A stretch of DNA of 60,685 bases, filler included, from a candidate division WOR-3 bacterium (GTDB lineage: Bacteria; SDB-A): the NCBI GenBank assembly GCA_016934535.1. It is 4 parts of 4 records of this genome, joined end to end, with 100 filler letters (N's around TTAATTAATTAA, not from the genome) between each part and the next. Parts side by side here need not be neighbours in the genome. Positions count along the whole stretch, not along the records: positions 1 to 21,811 come from JAFGSQ010000046.1; 3 more parts are not named here. The stretch is one strand, 5' to 3'. Position 1 is the stretch's first letter; each line of letters starts with the position of its first letter. A program made the translations under genes and the position numbers. The notes beneath the pieces were generated by a model. It had not been told where the DNA came from and did no database searches. It was given only the letters and a program-made list of their open reading frames with translations. Below, piece after piece: positions 2,291 to 12,740 of this stretch.

Positions 2291-4333
2291 ATGAAATATC
2301 CCGTCACTAAAAAACGGAACTTTACTGAAGAGTTGCACGGTAAACAAGTTGCGGATCCATACAGATGGCTCGAGAAAATAGAAACTGAAGAAGTCGGTAA
2401 ATGGGTTTCCGAACAGAACAAATTTTCTAAGAAATTTCTCCGGGATGGCGCGGCGTACGACAAAATTCTCAAGGAGCTCAAAAAAATCTGGTATTACTCT
2501 AGTCAGAATGCTCCATCAGTAAAAGGGGGAAAATATTTCTACCTAGCAAACGATGGCACTCAAAACCACAATATCTTATACGTCAAGGAATCTCTCGATG
2601 CACCGCCGCGAATTCTTCTGGACCCGAATAAATGGAGTAAAGACGGTTCATCGTCGTTGTCGGTGCTGTATATATCTGATGACGGAAAATACCTCGTGTA
2701 CGGGATAAGCAGATCCGGTTCGGATTGGCAGGACATAAAAATATTAGATGTCGAAAAGACAAAAGACCTGCCGGAGACTTTAAAATGGTGCAGATTTACG
2801 TTCGTTTCCTGGAAGAAAGACTCTTCCGGCTTTTTTTACAACAGGTTCCCGGAAGAGACTTCAGTCCCTCCCGAAGACAGAATAAATTATTCAAAGGTGT
2901 ATTTTCACGAATTGAACTCGGATCAGTCTCAGGACGTTTTGATTTTTGAGGACAACAAAAACAAAGAGCAGGATTTTTATCCGGTTGTGACCTATGACGG
3001 TGAATATCTTTTAATATTTGCCGGTATAGGCACCGATAACAAGAATTTGGTTTACGTCAGAAAGTTAATTGAAAACAAACGTTTCATTAGATTAATTCCT
3101 GATTTTGAAGCGGAATATACTTATGTCTACAACATAGGCGACATCTTCTTTTTTAAAACAGATTTAAACGCACCGTTCGGGAAAATTGTATCAATCGACC
3201 TGAAAAATCCATCCGAAAAAGCTTGGAAAGAGGTAGTTCCGGAGACTCGGAATAAGCTTTTAAATGCAACTACAGCAGGCGAAAAATTTATTCTTGAATA
3301 TCTTTACGATGCTCACAGCGTTCTAAAAATTTACTCCCTTGAAGGCAAGCTTCTGAATGAAATCCAACTGCCGGGCTTGGGAACAGTTCTGGGCATAAGC
3401 GGGGAACCTGATCTAAAAGACATATATTTCAAGTACACTTCTTTCACTTACCCGGGGATAGTATATCAGTACGACATTAACAGGAATGAAATGAAGGAAT
3501 TCAGCAGAGACGGGCTGTCCGTTGATCAGTCTGAATTTACCATCGAAAGGCTTATTGCCGTGTCGAAAGACGGCACGAAAGTTCCATATTTTCTCGTCCG
3601 GGGAAAAAGTGTCGAAAGGAACGGATCTAATCCGACGATTCTGTATGGATACGGCGGATTCAACATACCTGAAACACCTTCCTTTTCCGTTTCGTTATAT
3701 TATTGGCTGAAAAAAGGAGGAATATACGCTCTGGCGAATCTCAGGGGAGGCGGCGAGTTCGGTGAGGTCTGGCACAAAGGAGGAATGCTAGGAAACAAAC
3801 AGAACGTGTTCGAAGATTTCATCGCCGTGGCACAATCCTTGATCGAAAACGGCTTTACACAAAAAGAAAAGCTTGCAATCAGAGGCGGAAGCAACGGAGG
3901 TCTTCTGACAGGCGCGTGCATGATTCAAAAACCAGAACTGTTCGGAGCCGTAGTATGCCAGGTCGGGGTACTCGATATGCTTAGGTATCACAAGTGGACA
4001 GTTGGAAGATACTGGATCCCCGAATACGGAGATCCGGAAAATAAGGAACATTTCCAATTCCTTTATGCCTATTCACCGGTTCATAATGTGAAAAAAGGTG
4101 TAAAATATCCACCGGTACTTATAACGACTGCCGACACAGACGACAGGGTGTATCCGGCTCATTCTTTTAAATTCGCGGCAGAACTACAGGAAAAATCTTC
4201 CGGAGAAAGTCCCGTGCTACTGAGAATTGAGGAAAAAGCAGGACACGGACACGGAAAATCATTGTCGAAACTGGTGGAACAAGCCTCAGATATATACTCT
4301 TTCCTTAATAAAACACTCGGGCTTGAAGGTTGA
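2291..4333 (+). CDS. Prolyl oligopeptidase (peptidase S9A), cytoplasmic
   Basis: DPYRWLE, YGYGGF, RGGGEFG, nucleophile GGSNGGLL, DDRV and AGHG triad motifs. No signal peptide. Confidence 0.95.
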   Translation: MKYPVTKKRNFTEELHGKQVADPYRWLEKIETEEVGKWVSEQNKFSKKFLRDGAAYDKILKELKKIWYYSSQNAPSVKGGKYFYLANDGTQNHNILYVKESLDAPPRILLDPNKWSKDGSSSLSVLYISDDGKYLVYGISRSGSDWQDIKILDVEKTKDLPETLKWCRFTFVSWKKDSSGFFYNRFPEETSVPPEDRINYSKVYFHELNSDQSQDVLIFEDNKNKEQDFYPVVTYDGEYLLIFAGIGTDNKNLVYVRKLIENKRFIRLIPDFEAEYTYVYNIGDIFFFKTDLNAPFGKIVSIDLKNPSEKAWKEVVPETRNKLLNATTAGEKFILEYLYDAHSVLKIYSLEGKLLNEIQLPGLGTVLGISGEPDLKDIYFKYTSFTYPGIVYQYDINRNEMKEFSRDGLSVDQSEFTIERLIAVSKDGTKVPYFLVRGKSVERNGSNPTILYGYGGFNIPETPSFSVSLYYWLKKGGIYALANLRGGGEFGEVWHKGGMLGNKQNVFEDFIAVAQSLIENGFTQKEKLAIRGGSNGGLLTGACMIQKPELFGAVVCQVGVLDMLRYHKWTVGRYWIPEYGDPENKEHFQFLYAYSPVHNVKKGVKYPPVLITTADTDDRVYPAHSFKFAAELQEKSSGESPVLLRIEEKAGHGHGKSLSKLVEQASDIYSFLNKTLGLEG

Positions 4334-4480
4334 TGTTTAAAAATATTAGAAATTTTAAACCGTAAATCGAAGATAACAGAACAATTCTGTTTTCTTACGG
4401 GTATTTTTTGAAATATTTAAAAAATTGGAATATTTCCATTCAGCGTTCGGTATTCATGATTGTTTTCTCAGGAGGTATTT

Positions 4481-4936
4481 ATGATTAAGAAATATTTGGT
4501 AATTGCGGTTCTGTTTTTTGCATCGACCGTAATATTCGGGGAAGAAAACGGCGAAATTCAGCTAAATCCGACAGAGGATGTAAACTCTCTTACAGGATAT
4601 TACATACCCGTGGATATTGAGGATTGTTTCATGGAGTTGAATAAGATGCTACCCGAGGAAACGATTGATAAAATGTCTGAAGGAAAGGAATCAGAAATGA
4701 TTAACTACCATCACGGTTTGGGAACCTGGATCAGAAACAACTGGGGGCTATGGTCCGATTCGCGTCTGGCTGACTATTTTAATTCTTTGGGAATTTTGCA
4801 TCCGGACGATATGTCGTCTATCATTTTAGATTCTTTTTGGAAGAGATTGAACGGGAAGCCGCTCGAACTGGAAAAACAGGTACAGTTTTATATTGATTAC
4901 TGGGAAAATCAGATGGAACAAACCGATGAAGAGTGA
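4481..4936 (+). CDS. Exported DUF6794-like protein
   Basis: AGGAGGT RBS precedes the ATG at 4481. Signal peptide present. Motif 'YHHGLGTWIRNNWGLW..SRL..YF...GILHPDDMS'. Confidence 0.75.
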   Translation: MIKKYLVIAVLFFASTVIFGEENGEIQLNPTEDVNSLTGYYIPVDIEDCFMELNKMLPEETIDKMSEGKESEMINYHHGLGTWIRNNWGLWSDSRLADYFNSLGILHPDDMSSIILDSFWKRLNGKPLELEKQVQFYIDYWENQMEQTDEE

Positions 4937-6475: not shown

Positions 6476-7336
6476 TTGATTGTAAGCGCGAGCAGACGCA
6501 CGGACATTCCTGCGTTTTATACCGAATGGTTTTTCAAAAGGATAAGCGAAGGCAAAGTACAGGTCAGGAATCCCAGGAATTTGAATCTTGTTAAGGAAAT
6601 TTCTCTCGTTCCGGACAATGTCGACGGCTTTGTCTTCTGGACAAAAAATCCTTCACCGATGATCAGTAGTCTTTCAGAAATAGAAAAATACGCCTATTAT
6701 TTTCAGTTTACTTTGAACTCATACGAAAATGATGTGGAACCTAACGTCGCGAAAAAAGAAGAGAGGGTGGGCGCTTTCAAAAAACTGTCGGATCTGATCG
6801 GTCCGGACAGAATCGTCTGGAGGTACGACCCTATACTTCTGACTAAAAAATATTCTGTGGAATGGCACGTTTTATCTTTTGAAAAAACCTCGAATTCTCT
6901 CAGTGGCCGGACGAAAAAGTGTGTCATAAGCTTTGTCGATGAGTACAAGAAATGTGAAAACAATCTGAGATCTATAGGTCTTATAGATTTTGACGAACGG
7001 ACGATTTACGAATTGAGCGCCAAGCTTGCGGAAATTTCTGAAAAATCCGCTATGGAACTTACGACTTGTGCAGAGAGCTCAGATCTGTCCTCGCTAGGTA
7101 TAAAAAGAGGAAAATGTGTAGACGCCGGTCTCCTGGAGAAAATATCGGGAAGAAAAGTTACCGGTACCAAAGACCGGGCTCGGAGGGAAAAATGCCTCTG
7201 CGACACGAGCGTGGACATCGGTGTTTACGGCTCCTGCCCGGCCGGATGCATATACTGCTACGCCGGCCCATGCAATGAAAAAGTACGGAACAAATTTTTT
7301 GAGTACGATCCAAATCTTCCGCTTCTTTCTTTTTAG
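6476..7336 (+). CDS. DUF1848 family protein (radical-SAM-like, C-terminal CxxxCxxC)
   Basis: IVSASRRTDIPAFY, VFWTKNP, WRYDPI and 'CLC..SVDIGVYGSCPAGCIYCYA'. Confidence 0.9.
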   Translation: MIVSASRRTDIPAFYTEWFFKRISEGKVQVRNPRNLNLVKEISLVPDNVDGFVFWTKNPSPMISSLSEIEKYAYYFQFTLNSYENDVEPNVAKKEERVGAFKKLSDLIGPDRIVWRYDPILLTKKYSVEWHVLSFEKTSNSLSGRTKKCVISFVDEYKKCENNLRSIGLIDFDERTIYELSAKLAEISEKSAMELTTCAESSDLSSLGIKRGKCVDAGLLEKISGRKVTGTKDRARREKCLCDTSVDIGVYGSCPAGCIYCYAGPCNEKVRNKFFEYDPNLPLLSF

Positions 7337-7384: not shown

Positions 7385-8383
7385 ATGATTAAAAAATATT
7401 ATTATTGTCTTTTGAGTGTAATATTTCTGGCGGCAATTTCAGGATGCAGTGATAAAAATCCGAATGAACCAGGACCCGGCACTAGCAGGGATTACCGCGA
7501 AGACATGCGAATTTTTGTTCAAAAAGTTAATTCATACGCTGACAGCCTTAGGCCGGGCTTCATTGTCGTTCCGCAGAACGGTAACGAACTGATAACCTCT
7601 GACGGAGAAGCCGGCGGTCCTCTGAAGACGGAATATATCGCCGCGATAGACGGTTTAGGAAGGGAAGACCTTTTTTACGGATACGATCAGGACGACATAC
7701 CGACACCTGCCGTGGAAAGGGATTACATGACGGGATTTCTCGACCGCGCGGAAATAAACGGCATAGAGGTTCTCGTCACTGACTATTGTTCGACGAGAAT
7801 TTTTGTCGATTCTTCATATCAGATGAATTTTCAAAGGGATTACATTTCATTTGCGGCAGACAAAAGGGAATTAAACAACATTCCGTCATATCCCGCGGCG
7901 CCTTATCACTCAAACCTTTTTGACATCTTAAATATAAATGAAGCCAAGAATTTTCTTTATTTGATTAATCCGGAACAGTACCAGAGCAAAACCCAATACT
8001 TGAACGCGCTCTCCTCGACGGATTTCGACCTTCTCATAATAGACGCTTTTTTTCAAGGAACACTTCTGACTTACGACGATGTCCAGACACTCGGCAATAA
8101 AGCTTCTGGCGGAAGCAGACTCGTTCTTGCCTACATGAGCATAGGCGAAGCCGAGAATTACAGGTATTACTGGAAAAACGAATGGATAACCGATCCCCCT
8201 TCATGGCTGGGAGAGGAAAACCCAGACTGGCCCGGTAATTTCAGGGTTGAATATTGGGATCCCGGATGGCAGTCCGTAATTTTCGGCAACGACAGCTCTT
8301 ACACAAAAAAGATAATAGATGCCGGTTTCGACGGAGTGTATCTCGACATTATTGATGCGTTTGAATATTACGAGGTCAACTAG
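7385..8383 (+). CDS. Lipoprotein, endo-alpha-1,4-polygalactosaminidase-like (GH114/TM1410 type), circularly permuted
   Basis: Lipobox ISGC. Motifs IVVPQNG, IDGLGREDLFYG, AYMSIGEAENYRYYW, NPDWPGN and GFDGVYLDIIDAF. Confidence 0.85.
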   Translation: MIKKYYYCLLSVIFLAAISGCSDKNPNEPGPGTSRDYREDMRIFVQKVNSYADSLRPGFIVVPQNGNELITSDGEAGGPLKTEYIAAIDGLGREDLFYGYDQDDIPTPAVERDYMTGFLDRAEINGIEVLVTDYCSTRIFVDSSYQMNFQRDYISFAADKRELNNIPSYPAAPYHSNLFDILNINEAKNFLYLINPEQYQSKTQYLNALSSTDFDLLIIDAFFQGTLLTYDDVQTLGNKASGGSRLVLAYMSIGEAENYRYYWKNEWITDPPSWLGEENPDWPGNFRVEYWDPGWQSVIFGNDSSYTKKIIDAGFDGVYLDIIDAFEYYEVN

Positions 8384-8424
8384 ATGTTTTCGAGTTGCCC
8401 CAAAATGCACGAAATGATATATTT

Positions 8425-8997
8425 ATGATTATGATTGTGATGGTTGTTTGTTGTCTGGTAATTCAGCAGAATTTATATTTACGAGATTTCTACAAGAGCG
8501 AAGCCGATACATACTCCCTAAAAATTGACGCCAAAATCCTTTCCGGAGAACTGTACACAAGGGAAGCCTACATAAAACATCCGGTCATACCGGGAATAGG
8601 AAACACATATAACAGTCTTATGGCCTATTACGACCTTGTGGGAGATGAAGGCGAATACGACATCAAATACTGCATGATAGAAAACACATATCATTATCTG
8701 TCTTATACAGCGGTGGATGCCGCTTATTACGGAGAAGACGGCTTGCCGGTTAAAATGCTGTCGACTCTCATTCAAAATATCTCTGCGGATGAAAGCGAAC
8801 AACTTGCAGAAAAAGTGTTTTATTATGAAAACGGTTTATTTCAGAGCTATTACAGTGAAGCAGACGGCGAACCTATATCAGAAGAGAATCCGGACTCATC
8901 AGCCGCCGAATATTACAAAAAAGCATTACAGCTCAGAACTTTTTTTGAGGATTTTTCCGTTCCTGTCCCCACTATACTTTGGGACTATCTGCAGTGA
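8425..8997 (+). CDS. Hypothetical exported or membrane-anchored protein (Tyr/acid-rich)
   Basis: Open frame of about 190 aa with a hydrophobic N-terminus from ATG 8425. No recognised motif. Confidence 0.55.
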   Translation: MIMIVMVVCCLVIQQNLYLRDFYKSEADTYSLKIDAKILSGELYTREAYIKHPVIPGIGNTYNSLMAYYDLVGDEGEYDIKYCMIENTYHYLSYTAVDAAYYGEDGLPVKMLSTLIQNISADESEQLAEKVFYYENGLFQSYYSEADGEPISEENPDSSAAEYYKKALQLRTFFEDFSVPVPTILWDYLQ

Positions 8998-9059
8998 TTG
9001 AACTTTAATCTGTTTTATTTCCATAAATAGTTTAAGTAATATCAGGGAAGGGACGGGGG

Positions 9060-9089
9060 TTGACTTTACAATTTACCCATGAATAAAAT
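9060..9089 (+). promoter_or_regulatory. Sigma70-type promoter, probably giving a leaderless mRNA for the RAYT-like gene
   Basis: TTGACT (9060-9065), 18 nt, TAAAAT (9084-9089). The ATG at 9095 sits at the expected TSS and has no SD. Confidence 0.55.
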
Positions 9090-9094
9090 ATGTG

Positions 9095-9952
9095 ATGCGC
9101 AAACCGAGATTAACGTATCAGGGAGCTCTTCACTACGTCATTTCTAAGAGTATAGAAAACAAAAGAATATTTCCCGACGATTTTTGTGTTTTGAAATTTC
9201 TTAACATTCTGGAACAAAGAGCTTCGACGCTGAAAATTGACGTTTTCGCTTTTTACGTCAGCGACGTCAGTTTTCACTTACTTCTGAGGAACACATCAGG
9301 AAAATTGTCGGATTTCATGAGACAGCTTAACAGCCTTTATGCATCGTACTTCAGAAAAAAGACAAAGTCCAGAGGTTATCTTTTTCAGGACAGATTCGAA
9401 TCATTTCTCATTCAGGACAGAAAATATTTAAAAAAGACATTGGCTTTTTTTCTGAACATCCCGGTCAAAGAAAAAAAAACTGTGGACGCATTTTCATACA
9501 GGTGGTCGAGCGTAAATTTCTATTTCAACAAGAAACAGGGATTCTTGGACACAGGTTTTATAGAAAATTTATTTGAGACTGCAGAAGATTTCAGGATTTT
9601 CGTCAGGAAGAATATCGACGAAAAGCTACAACGGTTTTTTTTACATCAAGGTAAAATTATAGGAGACGGAAATTTTAATTTTCGGGATGGATTCTTTAAA
9701 AAAGATGAAAGCGCTGTTTTTCGAGGAAAGGATGAAATAATAAGTGAAACTGAAAGGAAATACGGCGTCAACCTGAGCCATGTTGATTTTAAAAGCAGGA
9801 AAATGAAAAGGATAAGATCTGAATTGCTGCTGTTGCTCAAAGACGAATGCGGCATGAGATACAGCGAGATAAACGAAATGCAGTTTTTCAAAAATCTCAA
9901 ATTGAATTCGATGGGACAACTTTACAAACGGGCAAAGGACAGACAGAGTTGA
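9095..9952 (+). mobile_element. RAYT / IS200-like Y1 (HUH) transposase homolog with C-terminal HTH; catalytic residues degenerate
   Basis: MRKPRL..GA..V, LSDFMRQLNSLYASYF, GYLFQDRF and YRWSS are RAYT motifs. The HUH site reads VSFHLLL and the catalytic Tyr motif reads FFLNIPV. Confidence 0.85.
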
Positions 9953-10947
9953 GAATACTCGTAATAAATCTCGCCGCAATAGGCGATGTGGTCCTGTCAA
10001 GCGTCGTGGCAAAAGAACTGAAAAAGAAATTTCCTGGATCCACAGTGGATTATTTAGTCCAGCCGCTGTGCGCGACGGTTATTGAATTGTCGCCATTTGT
10101 AAATGGAGTTCATGTCTACGACAAAAAAAACAGGGACAAAGGAATTTTAAGATATTGTAAACTTGTAAAATCATTGAGAAAAATAAATTATGATATGAGC
10201 GTGTCCGTGAATTTTGCCGCGAGAGGGGCCATTCTGGCGTTTTTTATTCACGCAAAGCTCAGACTCGGATACTGCCGAAAAGTCAACGGCCTGTTTTTCA
10301 CTCACAGAGCATCAGGAGACAGAAAAGAAATTAAAAAAGAAGGCCTCAACCAGCTCGAAATCCTCAAACCTCTGGGCATTATCACTAAAAACACCTATCC
10401 CTACCTCAGGGCGAAAGAAAGCGATTTAAAAACAATAAGAAAATTACTAGGGGAAAAAGAAAATAGAAAAAGGCTCGTGTTTTGTCCGGCCAGTTCGAAA
10501 AATTTCAAAAATCTTCCGATTGAGCTGAGCGCTGAAGTGATTGAAAAGCTTTCTTCCGAATTTGATATCTTCGCCGTCGGAAGTGAAGCCGAAATATGCT
10601 ATCTTGAGAATTTAACTTCATCTGTAAAAGGGAAGGTCATGATATTTCCGGGAACTCTGACACTCGGCGAACTCGCGGCGCTTATTTCTTTTTCCGACGT
10701 CCTTTTGAGCATTGACACTGGACCTCTTCACATGGCGCAGGCTCTGAATGTGCCAACAACGGCGTTATTCGGCCCCACTGATCCCAGGGTCTGGGGTCCT
10801 CACGGAGAAAGAAACGAAGTAATCACTGCGGAGCTTGAATGTTCTCCGTGCAGTTTTAACAGGGAGTGTTCGGAAAACAAGTGCATGAGATATCTTGACG
10901 TCATGAAAATCTGCAGGAGCGTATTAAAAATGGCTGAAAAATCATGA
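9949..10947 (+). CDS. Glycosyltransferase family 9 (LPS heptosyltransferase-like)
   Basis: MRILVINLAAIGDVVL, DTGPLHMAQAL, LFGPT and C-terminal CSPC..C..C. TTG start at 9949 overlaps the upstream TGA; AAAGGA RBS. Confidence 0.9.
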   Translation: MRILVINLAAIGDVVLSSVVAKELKKKFPGSTVDYLVQPLCATVIELSPFVNGVHVYDKKNRDKGILRYCKLVKSLRKINYDMSVSVNFAARGAILAFFIHAKLRLGYCRKVNGLFFTHRASGDRKEIKKEGLNQLEILKPLGIITKNTYPYLRAKESDLKTIRKLLGEKENRKRLVFCPASSKNFKNLPIELSAEVIEKLSSEFDIFAVGSEAEICYLENLTSSVKGKVMIFPGTLTLGELAALISFSDVLLSIDTGPLHMAQALNVPTTALFGPTDPRVWGPHGERNEVITAELECSPCSFNRECSENKCMRYLDVMKICRSVLKMAEKS

Positions 10948-11019
10948 ATTATTTTAACTGCAAATTCTTAAAAGTTTTGAAGATTGACATTTTGCGATAT
11001 AATATGCGGTATGGTGACA

Positions 11020-11478
11020 ATGAAAGAACTTTTTGAGTTTTTGGATGAAAAAAAAGCGGTGTATAAAAAGGTTTCTCACGCATCGACTGCTAATTCTGAA
11101 GAGTCAGCGACGGCGAGAGGAGAGGACATCTCAATAGGCGGGAAAGCTATTGTCATGAAAATTGAAAATGAATTTTACGTTTTTATTTTGAGCGCAGCGA
11201 AAAAAATTGATTCTTCTTCCCTGAGACACCGTTTTAAAGCCAAAAGAATAAGATTCGCGACCAGAGAAGAGCTTTTAGAAATTACTGGATTGGAGCCGAA
11301 CTGCGTTCCGCCTTTCGGCAGACCTCTTATAGATCTCGATCTTTTCGTTGACGAATCGGTGTTTAAGAACAAAAAAATTGCTTTTAACGCCGCTTCCCGA
11401 ACGGATTCCGTTATAATGGACATAGAGCAGTACAAGACACTTATCGAACCGGAAGTTTTTTCTTTTTCAAAAGATTAA
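11020..11478 (+). CDS. YbaK/ProX family aminoacyl-tRNA deacylase
   Basis: H..T..SEESA..RG, GGKAIVMK, RFATREEL, VPPFG and FNAAS.T.S. Confidence 0.85.
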   Translation: MKELFEFLDEKKAVYKKVSHASTANSEESATARGEDISIGGKAIVMKIENEFYVFILSAAKKIDSSSLRHRFKAKRIRFATREELLEITGLEPNCVPPFGRPLIDLDLFVDESVFKNKKIAFNAASRTDSVIMDIEQYKTLIEPEVFSFSKD

Positions 11479-11503
11479 GATTTCTATTTATTGAAAAGGA
11501 GGA

Positions 11504-11785
11504 ATGTTGGCAAAAATTTATCAGGTTAAATATGAAAGCCAGGCCGACCACAGGGCGTTAAAAGTCGATTACGAATCACAAGCCGACATCTTGGTATATT
11601 TGAGCGATACGGAAAGCGTCGCAGAAGGTGATTTTCTTTGGTTTTACGTCGATGACGAAAGTCTGGCGACGAGCAAACTTATGTGGACTGAAAGTGAGAG
11701 TGTCGCTGATATCAAAATTATGTTCGTTCCATACGAAAGCCAGGCCGGTTGGGTCACGGATCATCCATTGAAAGGCAAACTTTAG
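11504..11785 (+). CDS. DUF6150-like small protein with internal YESQAD repeats
   Basis: AAAGGAGG RBS. Repeated (Y/T)ES(Q/V)A(D/E/G) units and a C-terminal 'AGW...HPL'. Confidence 0.7.
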   Translation: MLAKIYQVKYESQADHRALKVDYESQADILVYLSDTESVAEGDFLWFYVDDESLATSKLMWTESESVADIKIMFVPYESQAGWVTDHPLKGKL

Positions 11786-11798
11786 AAAATAAATCCGT

Positions 11799-12740
11799 TC
11801 AGTGCCTTTCTGTTCTTTTTACAAGAAAGTATGTCAACACGGCCAGGACAGCCATAATTATAAGAAAAACAGGATAGGAAATATACCATTTATCTCTGCC
11901 GATAAGCTCTGTAAGCTCTGACATTCCGCCGACTCCGGCGAAAAAACTGGGAATCATAATCGCGAGAACGACTGCATTGAGATTTTTCATGAGAACATTC
12001 AAGTTGTTTGAGACGATTGAAGCGTTGGCTCCAAGAAGCCCGGTGAGGATGTTTGAGTAAATTTCAGTCTGTTTCAGGCACTGATTGTTTTCAATAATGA
12101 GGTCGTCGAGATATTCGAGATTTTCTTCGGAAAAAGACATTTTTTTCGAATATATACGCAATTTGTCGAGAACCGTCGAATTGGAATTGATCGCGTTGAG
12201 ATAATAAACGAGGCCTTTTTCAAGGGTGAAAAGATTTATGAGGTATTTGTTTTCCATTGATCTGTTAACCTTGTTTTCGAGCTCATTGGTAATCATGTTT
12301 ATTATTCTGAGATGCTCAAGAAAATGAGTTATGCAGATTTCGAATATTTTAAGTACAGCGTCCTGAACTGAGTGAATGTTCTTGAATTGTTTGGATTCGA
12401 GAAAAGCCATATCATCAGCCGAAACTATAATCAGAAAATCTTTAAAAATGAAAATACCCGCTGAAGTGACTTTGAAAAAATAATTGTCATCACTTGAATA
12501 ATTTTTAGGTCTTTTATAGATTATTGCGCAGTGATCTTCTTCAATTTCAAGACGCGCAAGTTCGTCCGGGTCCATTATGGAGAAAAGAGTGTGTTCGTCG
12601 AGTTTATATTTTTCTATTAGCTCGTGTTTCTCGGCTTCCGTTGGACAAGTGTAAAGACAAATCTGAGGAAGCAGGGCGCTTTGTGGATTTTGAATGTATT
12701 TAACAATTTTTCCTTCTGAGAATGAATAATTATGCACCAT
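11799..12740 (-). CDS. corA: CorA family divalent cation transporter (GMS variant)
   Basis: DPDELARLE, SIVSNNLNVLMKNL and two C-terminal TM helices flanking GGMSE. Confidence 0.85.
   Translation of the reverse strand: MVHNYSFSEGKIVKYIQNPQSALLPQICLYTCPTEAEKHELIEKYKLDEHTLFSIMDPDELARLEIEEDHCAIIYKRPKNYSSDDNYFFKVTSAGIFIFKDFLIIVSADDMAFLESKQFKNIHSVQDAVLKIFEICITHFLEHLRIINMITNELENKVNRSMENKYLINLFTLEKGLVYYLNAINSNSTVLDKLRIYSKKMSFSEENLEYLDDLIIENNQCLKQTEIYSNILTGLLGANASIVSNNLNVLMKNLNAVVLAIMIPSFFAGVGGMSELTELIGRDKWYISYPVFLIIMAVLAVLTYFLVKRTERH

What the first reader, a model, noticed from the sequence alone, without database searches (positions are those of the whole stretch)
9095..9952. Full-length but catalytically dead HUH (RAYT/Y1) transposase: candidate domesticated regulator
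Seen: an uninterrupted 285-aa ORF that keeps the structural RAYT motifs (R.PR, LS.FMR.LN..YA.YF, G.LFQDRF, YRWSS) and a C-terminal HTH-like region. The metal-binding M.NHxH reads SDVSFH, the nucleophile motif YIHxNP reads FFLNIP (Tyr to Phe), and YHV.SRG reads HYVISKS. Known: HUH enzymes need both His residues and the Tyr. Inference: targeted loss of catalytic residues with no frameshift or stop points to selection for a non-catalytic role (ssDNA/hairpin or DNA binding) rather than decay. No REP array is visible in the window.
Basis: partly seen in the sequence, partly recalled or inferred. Interest (0 to 1): 0.8.

Follow-up and report, generated by a model that had tools for sequence, protein, structure and literature searches.

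The report
Dead, tamed TIR-type tyrosine transposase gene
This gene is a transposase that has lost its DNA-cutting residues and one end of its mobile element but has been kept intact by selection at the head of a cell-envelope operon, so it most likely now works as a DNA-binding protein rather than a jumping gene.

Summary
Window 9095-9952 (+) is an open 285-aa frame. Its N-terminal 180 residues model as the E. coli REP-associated tyrosine transposase fold (4er8, Z 16.4). Residues 208-285 model as a DnaA domain-IV-like helix-turn-helix (Z about 9).

The first His of HUH (S59), the nucleophile Tyr (F118) and the metal-binding Asn (I122) are replaced. So is H14, which is invariant in 67 intact relatives. 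H61 is kept.

The parent family is not the REP-flanked RAYT but the TIR-flanked TIRYT/TIRtron type (subclass 2.1). 11 of 11 intact relatives with full flanks carry 12-40 bp terminal inverted repeats starting (G)GGGACGG. 5 of 5 dead copies carry no pair.

The window and its 54% ortholog keep only the left repeat, at -45, and it holds the -35 box of the gene's promoter. The stop codon overlaps the start of a GT9 glycosyltransferase gene in both. Ten genes are collinear. dN/dS is 0.15, with dS saturated.

Domestication is therefore well supported. A role as a regulator acting at the retained repeat and promoter is inferred, not shown. Several other dead lineages exist in the family, but their independence is not statistically established. 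This is a new variant of a known kind, of moderate interest.

The parts
9050..9064 (+). Left terminal-inverted-repeat remnant (GGGACGGGGGTTGAC), 45 nt before the ATG. No inverted partner lies anywhere in the window.
   Evidence: It aligns with the left TIRs of intact relatives (L027, L004a, L005, L002) and with GGGACGAAGGTTGAC at the same place in the ortholog L001. It is the single match in the window at up to 3 mismatches on both strands. In 8 of 11 intact elements the left TIR starts at -43 to -48.
9060..9089 (+). Sigma-70-like promoter TTGACT-18-TAAAAT. The -35 lies inside the TIR remnant. The -10 ends 5 nt before the ATG, so a leaderless mRNA is possible.
   Evidence: It is the best consensus match (10 of 12) in 8300-12000. 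This is a pattern match only: 8 sites were found against 8.4 expected in shuffles. Both hexamers are conserved in L001 while the spacer is not.
9095..9952 (+). Gene for the 285-aa catalytically dead TIRYT-type Y1 transposase homolog.
9095..9634 (+). N-terminal domain (residues 1-180) with the RAYT/TnpA_REP fold. Changed active-site codons: Y14 (9134-9136), S59 (9269-9271), F118 (9446-9448), I122 (9458-9460). H61 (9275-9277) is kept.
   Evidence: AlphaFold2 model with pLDDT 87. 4er8_A scores Foldseek E 1e-5 and VIA Z 16.4, rmsd 2.6 over 155 residues. Site table.
9716..9949 (+). C-terminal domain (residues 208-285) with a DnaA domain-IV-like helix-turn-helix. The recognition helix NSMGQLYKRAK is conserved.
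   Evidence: VIA-align gives 8btg, 1j1v, 1l8q and 3pvp at Z 8.7-9.0, rmsd 1.8-3.0, 73-76 residues, ranked above other HTH proteins at Z 6.4 or less. Pfam Bac_DnaA_C was not detected by sequence. G274-K281 is invariant in the 4-member clade.
9949..10947 (+). GT9 (heptosyltransferase-family) gene. Its TTG start overlaps the TGA stop of the dead transposase gene (TTGA).
   Evidence: Pfam Glyco_transf_9, E 1.7e-31. The same 4-base overlap (GTGA) is seen in L001 at 1696/1699. Sequence.
10984..11478 (+). YbaK-like tRNA_edit domain gene, the next gene on the same strand. It is syntenic in L001.
   Evidence: Pfam tRNA_edit, E 2.6e-21. 73% identity to L001 2726-3190.
8395..8997 (+). Upstream 200-aa protein with no Pfam family. 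It is syntenic in L001 and in the X2 contig.

Best explanation
The gene is an immobilised, catalytically inactive descendant of a TIRYT/TIRtron insertion element. Such an element is a RAYT-like Y1 (HUH) transposase with a DnaA-domain-IV-like C-terminal HTH, flanked by GGGGACGG... terminal inverted repeats.

The history I infer is this. In the common ancestor of the window's organism and of the L001, P0001 and P0002 organisms, an element sat in front of a GT9 glycosyltransferase gene. It then lost its right end, so that the stop codon now overlaps the GT9 start. It also lost the active-site constellation (H14Y, H59S, Y118F, N122I/V).

The rest of the protein has been kept by purifying selection, both the hairpin/ssDNA-binding scaffold and the HTH. 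The left repeat has been kept too, and it carries the -35 box of the gene's own promoter.

Shown here: homology, fold, residue losses, loss of the TIR pair, single copy in the ortholog genome, synteny and constraint.

Inferred: the protein still binds the TIR-derived site, as a transposase binds its own end. By sitting on the promoter it would autoregulate the operon it heads (dead transposase, GT9, YbaK-like gene). It would then be a transposase turned into a local DNA-binding regulator.

My odds are about 0.8 for 'domesticated, non-catalytic, selected' and about 0.4 for the specific regulator-at-the-TIR mechanism.
For: Family and fold:
- 4er8 matches at Z 16.4. DnaA domain IV matches at Z 8.7-9.0 (Foldseek).
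- Quentin 2018 passages describe subclass 2.1 with a Bac_DnaA_C/HTH C-terminus and no REPs, equated with TIRYT.
- Di Nocera 2013 passages give the TIR motif GGGGWSAS.

Catalytic loss:
- Seven sites are 100% invariant in 67 intact subfamily members. R5, H61 and R100 are kept. H14, H59, Y118 and N122 are changed in all 4 clade members.
- 32 of 49 sites that are at least 80% conserved in intact members are fully kept in the clade.
- The E. coli active site is Y115, H59, H61, N119, H123 and E161.

Immobilisation:
- 11 of 11 intact loci with full flanks have TIR pairs of 12-40 bp. 0 of 5 dead copies do (WIN, L001, L004a, L004b, L009).
- No inverted partner lies in the 60.7-kb window or in the 9.7-kb L001.
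- The ortholog genome G001 holds one copy. G003, G004 and G005 gave 6, 3 and 21 matches (matches, not copy numbers), many at contig ends. G003 has two pairs of about 98% identical copies.

Selection:
- dN/dS is 0.147 against L001. Three of the four neighbouring genes give 0.07-0.29.
- 263 of 285 residues are identical and 278 of 285 similar, with no gaps, against P0001.

Synteny and coupling:
- Ten genes are collinear with L001.
- A 39.6-kb contig in run X2 covers 8395-10947 collinearly, with 196 differences and no indels.
- The TTGA/GTGA stop-start overlap with GT9 is seen in both loci.

Operator idea:
- The left-TIR block GGGACGnnGGTTGAC is conserved at 13 of 15 positions between WIN and L001, while the promoter spacer has diverged.
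- It contains the -35 of the best promoter-like site.
- A second dead lineage (L004) has three exact direct copies of GGGACGGAGGTTGAC upstream of a tandem dead pair, with no inverted copy.
Against: - No binding, expression or phenotype data exist.
- dS against L001 is saturated (2.56), so the dN/dS value is imprecise. No DNA of the 92% and 57% orthologs could be read in full: one search listed only 40 of 196 differences, all of them before 8939.
- Conservation of the TIR block may partly reflect the promoter alone, since TTGAC is the -35.
- The third dead lineage (L009) shows no TIR-like motif upstream.
- In G001 the other matches to the motif lie inside coding sequence, so no regulon is visible.
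- The gene is the fastest-evolving of the five compared (dN 0.374).
- H61 and the invariant Y111 remain, so residual chemistry is not formally excluded. I could not measure distances in the model.
Confidence: 0.6

Rival explanations
1. It is a decaying relic: a dead transposase gene drifting toward loss, open only by chance or through polarity constraints of the GT9 operon.
For: It has the highest dN of the five neighbouring genes compared (0.374). Its GC is lower than the window's (0.366 against 0.429). Quentin 2018 treated sequences lacking the core motifs as probably non-functional (passage). A truly broken copy exists elsewhere (L014, split into two frames).
Against: Four orthologs down to 54% identity all keep full-length frames with no internal gaps. 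dN/dS is 0.147 at saturated dS. 32 of 49 family-conserved sites are kept, while the losses concentrate on active-site positions. The HTH recognition helix is invariant in the clade.
Confidence: 0.08
2. It is still an enzyme. It would cut or join DNA with a rebuilt active site, using H61 plus Y14, H13 or Y111 in place of the lost residues.
For: H61, H13 and Y111 are kept. A Tyr appears at position 14 in three dead groups (window clade, P0031/L009, P0007/9/11/L004a). This could be read as a replacement nucleophile.
Against: Tyr-to-Phe at the nucleophile is the classical inactivating change. It was used to trap ISDra2 complexes (2xo6, named). The metal site loses two of its ligands (H59, N122). 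There is no TIR pair or REP to act on. Other dead lineages lose different combinations, including H61, which looks like relaxed constraint on the whole site rather than a redesigned one.
Confidence: 0.05
3. It is domesticated but not a local regulator. It would be a non-catalytic ssDNA/hairpin or replication-fork-binding factor, or a trans-acting inhibitor of active TIRYT copies. Its position before GT9 would be a historical accident.
For: The HUH scaffold of relatives binds hairpins and ssDNA (4er8 complex). Quentin 2018 suggested that the DnaA-like domain might target replication forks (passage). Dead lineages sit in unrelated contexts: GT2 and surface proteins in L004, NRPS and a two-component system in L009.
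Against: The ortholog genome G001 holds no other copy to inhibit. No DnaA-box cluster lies near the gene: 4 matches in the window against 5.4 expected, none within 5 kb. The retained TIR block over the promoter and the conserved translational coupling fit a cis role better.
Confidence: 0.2

Closest known systems
TIRYT / TIRtron elements (Di Nocera et al. 2013, PMC3733652), equated with subclass 2.1 TnpA_REP-like Y1 proteins (Quentin et al. 2018, PMC6006769)
   Same: The N-terminal RAYT-like domain is homologous. It has the class-2 'Y---NP' helix context, the C-terminal HTH (DnaA-C-like) extension, the serine motif YxWSS and no REPs. The intact relatives found here are flanked by TIRs starting GGGGACGG, close to the published GGGGWSAS.
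   Different: HUH reads SFH, the Tyr is Phe and the Asn is Ile. Only the left TIR survives. The gene is single copy, syntenic and fused into a host operon. Both papers kept only sequences with HUH and Tyr conserved (passages).
E. coli TnpA_REP / RAYT (PDB 4er8; Messing et al. 2012, PMC3479197)
   Same: It is the best structural match, at Z 16.4 with 155 residues aligned. RAYTs are themselves regarded as domesticated, single-copy transposases (abstract start of PMC8266576 in the listing).
   Different: RAYTs keep Y115, H59, H61 and N119 and cleave REPs. They are flanked by REP/BIME hairpins and lack the DnaA-like HTH. NCBIfam REP_Tyr_transpos scores 27.3 bits against a cut-off of 80.
TldR, nuclease-dead TnpB homologs exapted as RNA-guided repressors (bioRxiv 10.1101/2023.11.30.569447; title and start of abstract seen)
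   Same: The concept is the same: a transposon-encoded nuclease loses catalysis and is reused as a transcription factor next to host genes.
   Different: It is a different protein family (the RuvC-type TnpB, by recall) and is guided by RNA. Here targeting would be by protein-DNA recognition of a former transposon end. No experiment exists for the present protein.
DnaA domain IV (1j1v, 3pvp, 8btg, 1l8q)
   Same: The fold of residues 208-285 is similar, at Z 8.7-9.0.
   Different: There is no sequence-level Pfam Bac_DnaA_C match. There are no DnaA boxes nearby. The published TIR consensus does not resemble DnaA boxes (passage).

Membership tests
HUH Y1 transposase superfamily (Pfam PF01797 Y1_Tnp) | Fold of the Y1/HUH nuclease domain | tested here: met
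   4er8 at Z 16.4, 2vhg at Z 9.9 and 2ec2 at Z 8.2. Foldseek probability is 1.00 to the IS608, ISDra2 and IS200 transposases.
HUH Y1 transposase superfamily (Pfam PF01797 Y1_Tnp) | Score at or above Pfam's gathering threshold | tested here: not met
   21.3 bits against a cut-off of 23 for the window protein. 18 of 18 members of alignment A2 match at E <= 0.1, best 1.8e-10.
HUH Y1 transposase superfamily (Pfam PF01797 Y1_Tnp) | His-hydrophobic-His metal-binding motif | tested here: not met
   It reads S59-F60-H61. H59 is invariant in 67 intact relatives.
HUH Y1 transposase superfamily (Pfam PF01797 Y1_Tnp) | Nucleophilic tyrosine on helix alpha-D, with Asn/Gln at +4 | tested here: not met
   F118 and I122 stand where the family has Y and N. 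Both are invariant in 67 intact relatives. Their roles are given in the passages.
RAYT / TnpA_REP (REPtron) | Gene flanked by REP/BIME hairpins with a GTAG guide | tested here: not met
   No flanking inverted repeats or hairpin arrays were found in 8700-10300. The subclass is reported to have no REPs (passage).
RAYT / TnpA_REP (REPtron) | NCBIfam NF047646 equivalog cut-off | tested here: not met
   27.3 bits against a cut-off of 80.
TIRYT / TIRtron (subclass 2.1) | Homology to TIR-flanked RAYT-like proteins with a C-terminal HTH extension | tested here: met
   It is sister to intact P0004 (= L002, a perfect 40-bp inverted repeat that includes the TIR) with SH-aLRT support of 95-97. The HTH fold is shown.
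TIRYT / TIRtron (subclass 2.1) | Pair of terminal inverted repeats around the gene | tested here: not met
   Only the left repeat remains, at 9050-9064. No inverted partner lies in the window at up to 3 mismatches. 11 of 11 intact relatives have pairs.
TIRYT / TIRtron (subclass 2.1) | HUH and catalytic Tyr conserved (stated for all published TIRYTs) | tested here: not met
   The published statement is in the passage.
DnaA domain IV (Pfam Bac_DnaA_C) | Sequence-profile match | tested here: inconclusive
   No Pfam hit at E <= 1 for the window protein, nor at E <= 0.1 in 18 relatives. The fold match is Z 8.7-9.0, with four DnaA entries ranking above other HTH proteins.
Transcription regulator | Sequence-specific binding to an operator with an effect on transcription | not testable with these tools
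   There are only indirect hints: the TIR remnant over the -35 and the conserved recognition helix.

The most novel reading that the evidence does not exclude
TIRYT transposases have been turned, possibly more than once, into nuclease-dead DNA-binding regulators. These would recognise former transposon ends now serving as operators. In this lineage the dead protein would sit on its retained left TIR and promoter and control a cell-envelope glycosyltransferase operon. In another lineage (L004) a tandem dead pair lies behind three direct TIR-derived sites. This would be a protein-guided counterpart of the TnpB-to-TldR exaptation, and the first functional non-catalytic HUH/Y1 protein in bacteria.
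Probability: 0.35. Interest if true: 0.7.

Novelty: new variant of a known kind. Interest (0 to 1): 0.5.

Why it matters
Domesticated transposases that have lost catalysis are common in eukaryotes, but few are documented in bacteria. RAYTs are called domesticated yet keep their active site. The two surveys of this family that I could read kept only sequences with HUH and Tyr.

This locus has several useful properties:
- The parent element type is identifiable.
- The steps of taming are readable in the sequence: loss of one end, loss of the active-site constellation, fusion to a host operon, and retention of the other end over the promoter.
- A simple hypothesis follows that can be tested with EMSA and reporter assays.

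The locus also flags H14 as a probable unrecognised active-site residue of this subfamily. It is invariant in 67 intact members and replaced in 9 of the 14 dead sequences.

The scope is modest. The clade has four known sequences from uncultured bacteria, and no function has been shown.

Tried and rejected
- **Whole-genome search of the window's own assembly.** None is held. Copy number could therefore be checked only in the 60.7-kb window (one copy) and in the ortholog genome G001 (one).
- **Single-protein locus scan of genome contigs.** It found nothing. Alignment-based scans found 25 loci plus 6 metagenome loci, but only L001 belongs to the dead clade.
- **Sequence search of PDB.** With the protein and with the A2 profile, only chance-level hits came back; 4er8 had E 0.83. 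Fold search was needed.
- **Regulon search.** GGGACGNNGGTTGAC in G001 gave 3 exact and 2 one-mismatch hits (reversed control 0). The four hits other than the ortholog's own site lie inside long open reading frames. They are rejected as operator sites.
- **DnaA boxes.** There are 4 in the window against 5.4 expected, none near the gene.
- **Population-level dN/dS.** Run X2 has a collinear 92%-identical contig, but only 40 of 196 differences were listed and none lies in the gene. No syn/nonsyn count was possible. My rough guess of omega about 0.15 from 22 amino-acid changes and about 7.7% DNA divergence is arithmetic, not a measurement.
- **RNA evidence.** No RNA holder was listed. The one RNA run laid (X8) gave no cover.
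- **Independence of the dead lineages.** The free trees need 5 changes (87 rows) or 4 changes (37 rows). AU tests did not reject all 14 dead rows as one clade (p 0.147). They also did not reject the window clade plus the YYC clade as one (p 0.092). The groups were named after the tree was seen.
- **Earlier findings of this scan.** Nothing was found by sequence.
- **Messing 2012 search for a residue equivalent to H14.** No passage was found.
- **Not done.** I sent no complex-prediction job, because I make no claim of protein-protein binding.
Full report
**1. The observation**

Window 9095-9952 (+) is an uninterrupted frame of 285 codons. A GTG one codon upstream is also in frame. All relatives begin MRKPR, so ATG 9095 is the start.

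Sequence-profile matches are weak:
- Pfam Y1_Tnp scores E 3e-4 and 21.3 bits, just under the cut-off of 23.
- NCBIfam REP_Tyr_transpos scores 27.3 bits against a cut-off of 80.

Homologs are nonetheless plentiful:
- The word-indexed search gave 29 proteins at E <= 0.001 among 557 candidates. They include P0001 (92% identity), P0002 (57%, named 'transposase [candidate division WOR-3 bacterium]' by its source) and P0003 (54%).
- The exhaustive search of 50%-identity representatives gave 9613 proteins at E <= 0.001, 1853 at <= 1e-10 and 50 at <= 1e-30.

- HYVISKS stands where the subfamily consensus is HHVMNRG.
- VSDVSFHLL stands where the consensus is IMDNHYHLx.
- AFFLNIPVK stands where the consensus is xYVLLNPVR (YIHxNP in the more canonical relatives P0020-P0025).
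- SGKLSDFMRQLN, GYLFQDRFES and YRWSS are kept.

**2. The fold**

I built an AlphaFold2 model on an 18-sequence alignment. It has mean pLDDT 87 and pTM 0.80.

The N-terminal domain matches the RAYT fold:
- Foldseek ranks the E. coli REP-associated tyrosine transposase first (4er8_A, E 1e-5, TM 0.72 on the target). The IS608, ISDra2 and IS200 transposases follow.
- The Foldseek-independent scan gives 4er8 at Z 16.4, rmsd 2.6 Å, with 155 residues aligned to model residues 1-180.

The C-terminal domain matches DnaA domain IV:
- Four DnaA domain-IV entries (8btg, 1j1v, 1l8q, 3pvp) score Z 8.7-9.0, rmsd 1.8-3.0 Å, 73-76 residues, for model residues 208-285.
- They rank ahead of other HTH proteins (DeoR at Z 6.4).
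- By the tool's own caution these Z values are middling. Pfam Bac_DnaA_C is not detected by sequence in the window protein or in 18 relatives.
- The assignment does agree with published work on the family (section 3).

**3. The family**

Passages of Quentin et al. 2018 (PMC6006769; found) describe class-2 'TnpA_REP-like' proteins:
- The tyrosine sits in a Y---NP context.
- The Asn (N119 of the E. coli enzyme) completes the metal site.
- Subclass 2.1 has a C-terminal Bac_DnaA_C / HTH_23 / HTH_28-like extension and no REP sequences nearby.
- Subclass 2.1 probably equals the TIRYTs of Di Nocera et al. 2013.

Passages of that paper (PMC3733652) define TIRYT genes and 'TIRtrons'. These are RAYT-like genes flanked by terminal inverted repeats, many sharing GGGGWSAS. 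The paper states that HUH and Tyr are conserved in all of them.

Passages of Messing et al. 2012 (PMC3479197) give the E. coli active site as Y115, H59-M60-H61, N119, H123 and E161.

I tested the TIR prediction on the loci I fetched:
- 11 of 11 catalytically intact relatives with complete flanks carry an inverted-repeat pair of 12-40 bp starting (G)GGGACGG or GGTGACGG. These are L002, L003, L005, L006, L007, L008, L010, L012, L013, L015 and L027.
- In 8 of the 11 the left copy starts 43-48 nt before the ATG. The right copy ends 12-71 nt after the stop.
- In some genomes the family is multi-copy and breaks assemblies. G003 gave 6 matches, G004 gave 3 and G005 gave 21, many of them cut by contig ends.
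- In G003 two pairs of copies are about 98% identical from a shared GGGGACGG boundary onward.

The parent is therefore a mobile, TIR-bounded element.

**4. What is lost and what is kept**

I compared 67 intact subfamily members with the window clade (WIN, P0001, P0002, P0003). These 67 are full-length rows of P0001-P0111 of at least 270 aa with H59, H61 and Y118 present, outgroups excluded.

- 49 positions are at least 80% conserved in the intact set. 32 of them are fully kept in the clade.
- Seven positions are 100% invariant in the intact set. R5, H61 and R100 are kept. H14, H59, Y118 and N122 are replaced in all four clade members (Y, S, F and I/V).
- So the nucleophile, two of the three core metal ligands and a further invariant His are gone.
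- Kept are the LFQDR strand, the YxWSS serine motif, G186/G190 and the HTH. G274-K281 (GQLYKRAK) is invariant in the clade.

**5. Immobilisation and synteny**

- The window holds one copy.
- The genome of the 54% ortholog (G001, locus L001) also holds one.
- The window and L001 are collinear over ten genes at 54-91% protein identity.
- The order in both is: a 200/187-aa protein of no family, the dead gene, a GT9 glycosyltransferase, a YbaK-like tRNA_edit protein and a membrane protein.
- In both, the dead gene's stop overlaps the GT9 start by four bases (TTGA in the window, GTGA in L001).
- A 39.6-kb contig in run X2 covers 8395-10947 collinearly, with 196 differences and no indels. P0001's longest contig has the same length, so I take this to be its contig.
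- None of the intact relatives shares a neighbour with the window.

No TIR pair exists at the dead loci. The window has only GGGACGGGGGTTGAC at 9050-9064, 45 nt before the ATG. No inverted partner lies anywhere in 60.7 kb at up to 3 mismatches. L001 has GGGACGAAGGTTGAC at the same place and nothing else in 9.7 kb.

Across all loci, 0 of 5 dead copies have a TIR pair (WIN, L001, L004a, L004b, L009), against 11 of 11 intact ones. The five dead copies represent three lineages, so they are not five independent events.

**6. Selection**

- Nei-Gojobori estimates between the window and L001 give dN 0.374, dS 2.56 (saturated) and dN/dS 0.147 for the dead gene.
- The neighbours give 0.289 (upstream protein), 0.196 (GT9) and 0.071 (membrane protein). 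The YbaK-like gene could not be computed because pS was above 0.75.
- The dead gene has the highest dN of the five but is clearly constrained.
- Against P0001 there are 22 differences in 285 residues, 15 of them conservative, and no gaps.
- I could not count synonymous changes against P0001. Only 40 of the 196 differences were listed, and all lie before 8939.

**7. How it most likely works**

The left-TIR block contains the -35 hexamer of the best promoter-like site in 8300-12000 (TTGACT-18-TAAAAT, 10 of 12; 9060-9089). This is a pattern match only: the region has as many such sites as shuffles do.

Between the window and L001 the block GGGACGnnGGTTGAC matches at 13 of 15 positions and the -10 region is conserved. 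The spacer has diverged. The -10 ends 5 nt before the ATG in both, so the mRNA may be leaderless. That is inference.

Transposases generally bind their own ends. Here the end overlaps the promoter, and both the DNA-binding parts of the protein and that end have been kept while the chemistry has gone. The simplest mechanism is that the protein binds the TIR-derived site and autoregulates the operon it heads.

A second dead lineage gives a parallel. In L004 a tandem pair of dead genes (HUH reads YYC and RYC, Tyr reads His) lies behind three exact direct copies of GGGACGGAGGTTGAC, with no inverted copy in 10.6 kb. The third dead lineage (L009) shows no such motif.

Nothing here demonstrates binding or regulation.

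**8. Other dead lineages**

Among 87 aligned rows (81 subfamily plus 6 outgroup), 14 lack H59, H61 or Y118.

Rows I left out:
- Everything under 270 aa. This drops the dead-looking fragments P0052, P0054, P0096, P0099, P0102 and P0164.
- P0025, P0027, P0028 and P0108.

The losses take different forms:
- SFH/F in the window clade.
- YYC, HYC and CYC, mostly with Tyr kept, in P0007/9/11/73.
- EFH and ECH with His for Tyr in P0014/47.
- DYQ/F in P0031.
- Others in P0091, P0095 and P0098.

N122 is replaced in 14 of 14 dead rows. H14 is Tyr in three groups.

The free trees need 5 changes (87 rows) or 4 changes (37 rows). They place the window clade next to intact P0004 (SH-aLRT 95-97) and the YYC group next to intact P0008/P0012 (97).

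However, AU tests did not reject one clade of all 14 dead rows (p 0.147). They also did not reject the window clade joined with the YYC group (p 0.092). Recurrent independent loss is therefore the favoured reading but not an established one.

**9. Comparison with what is known, and novelty**

By descent the protein belongs with the TIRYT / subclass 2.1 proteins. It fails their defining functional features: HUH, Tyr and a TIR pair.

It is not a REP-associated RAYT. It has no REPs and falls below the NCBIfam cut-off.

Conceptually it resembles TldR, the nuclease-dead TnpB homologs reused as repressors. I saw only the title and the start of the abstract of that preprint (10.1101/2023.11.30.569447).

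My literature searches turned up no description of a catalytically dead RAYT or TIRYT kept by selection. Quentin 2018 set such sequences aside as probably non-functional (passage). From recall only: the older COG1943 label 'transposase and inactivated derivatives' shows that dead copies were noticed in bulk, and Bertels et al. 2017 argued that RAYTs are domesticated.

I rate this a new variant of a known kind.

**10. Verdict**

'Dead, selected, immobilised' is well supported. 'Regulator' is a reasonable, testable inference.
- Interest is 0.5.

Noticed in passing
L004:1280-1625 and L004:1680-3606: Two tandem dead TIRYT genes (HUH reads YYC and RYC, Tyr reads His) lie behind three exact direct copies of GGGACGGAGGTTGAC. 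A fourth, degenerate copy lies about 150 nt before the first of the three. A second roughly 34-nt motif (CAGGAGGT.TCTTGTCAAAT.AGATAAG.AC) is repeated before the second gene and before the next ORF (3659-4633).
   Followed up: partly
Residue 14 of the protein (window 9134-9136) and the matching column in relatives: H14 is invariant in 67 intact subfamily members and is replaced by Tyr in three dead groups. It may be an unrecognised active-site residue of this subfamily. No passage on an equivalent residue was found in the E. coli structure paper.
   Followed up: partly
window 9084-9097; L001 822-835: The -10 hexamer ends 5 nt before the ATG in the window and in L001. Spacing is similar in intact L027 and L005. 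This suggests leaderless mRNAs as a compact design of these elements. The G003 copies instead have a roughly 100-140 nt leader with an AGGAGG site.
   Followed up: no
L014:8001-8906: A relative is split into two frames (136 and 131 aa), which is a genuinely broken copy. It lies in a genome (titled Aminicenantes) that also holds an intact TIR-flanked copy (L006).
   Followed up: no
window 11799-12740 (-): A CorA-like Mg2+ transporter gene on the opposite strand sits between the YbaK-like gene and the membrane-protein gene. It is absent at that place in the otherwise collinear L001.
   Followed up: no
window 6476-7336 and 7385-8383: A DUF1848 protein (E 4.5e-100) and a GH114-like lipoprotein lie upstream. 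L001 begins too close to its contig end to show whether they are syntenic.
   Followed up: no
G005 (loci L036-L061): There are 21 matches to the family in one 2.5-Mb genome, many of them short N-terminal pieces at contig starts or with internal stops. This points to a heavy, partly decayed expansion of the element.
   Followed up: no
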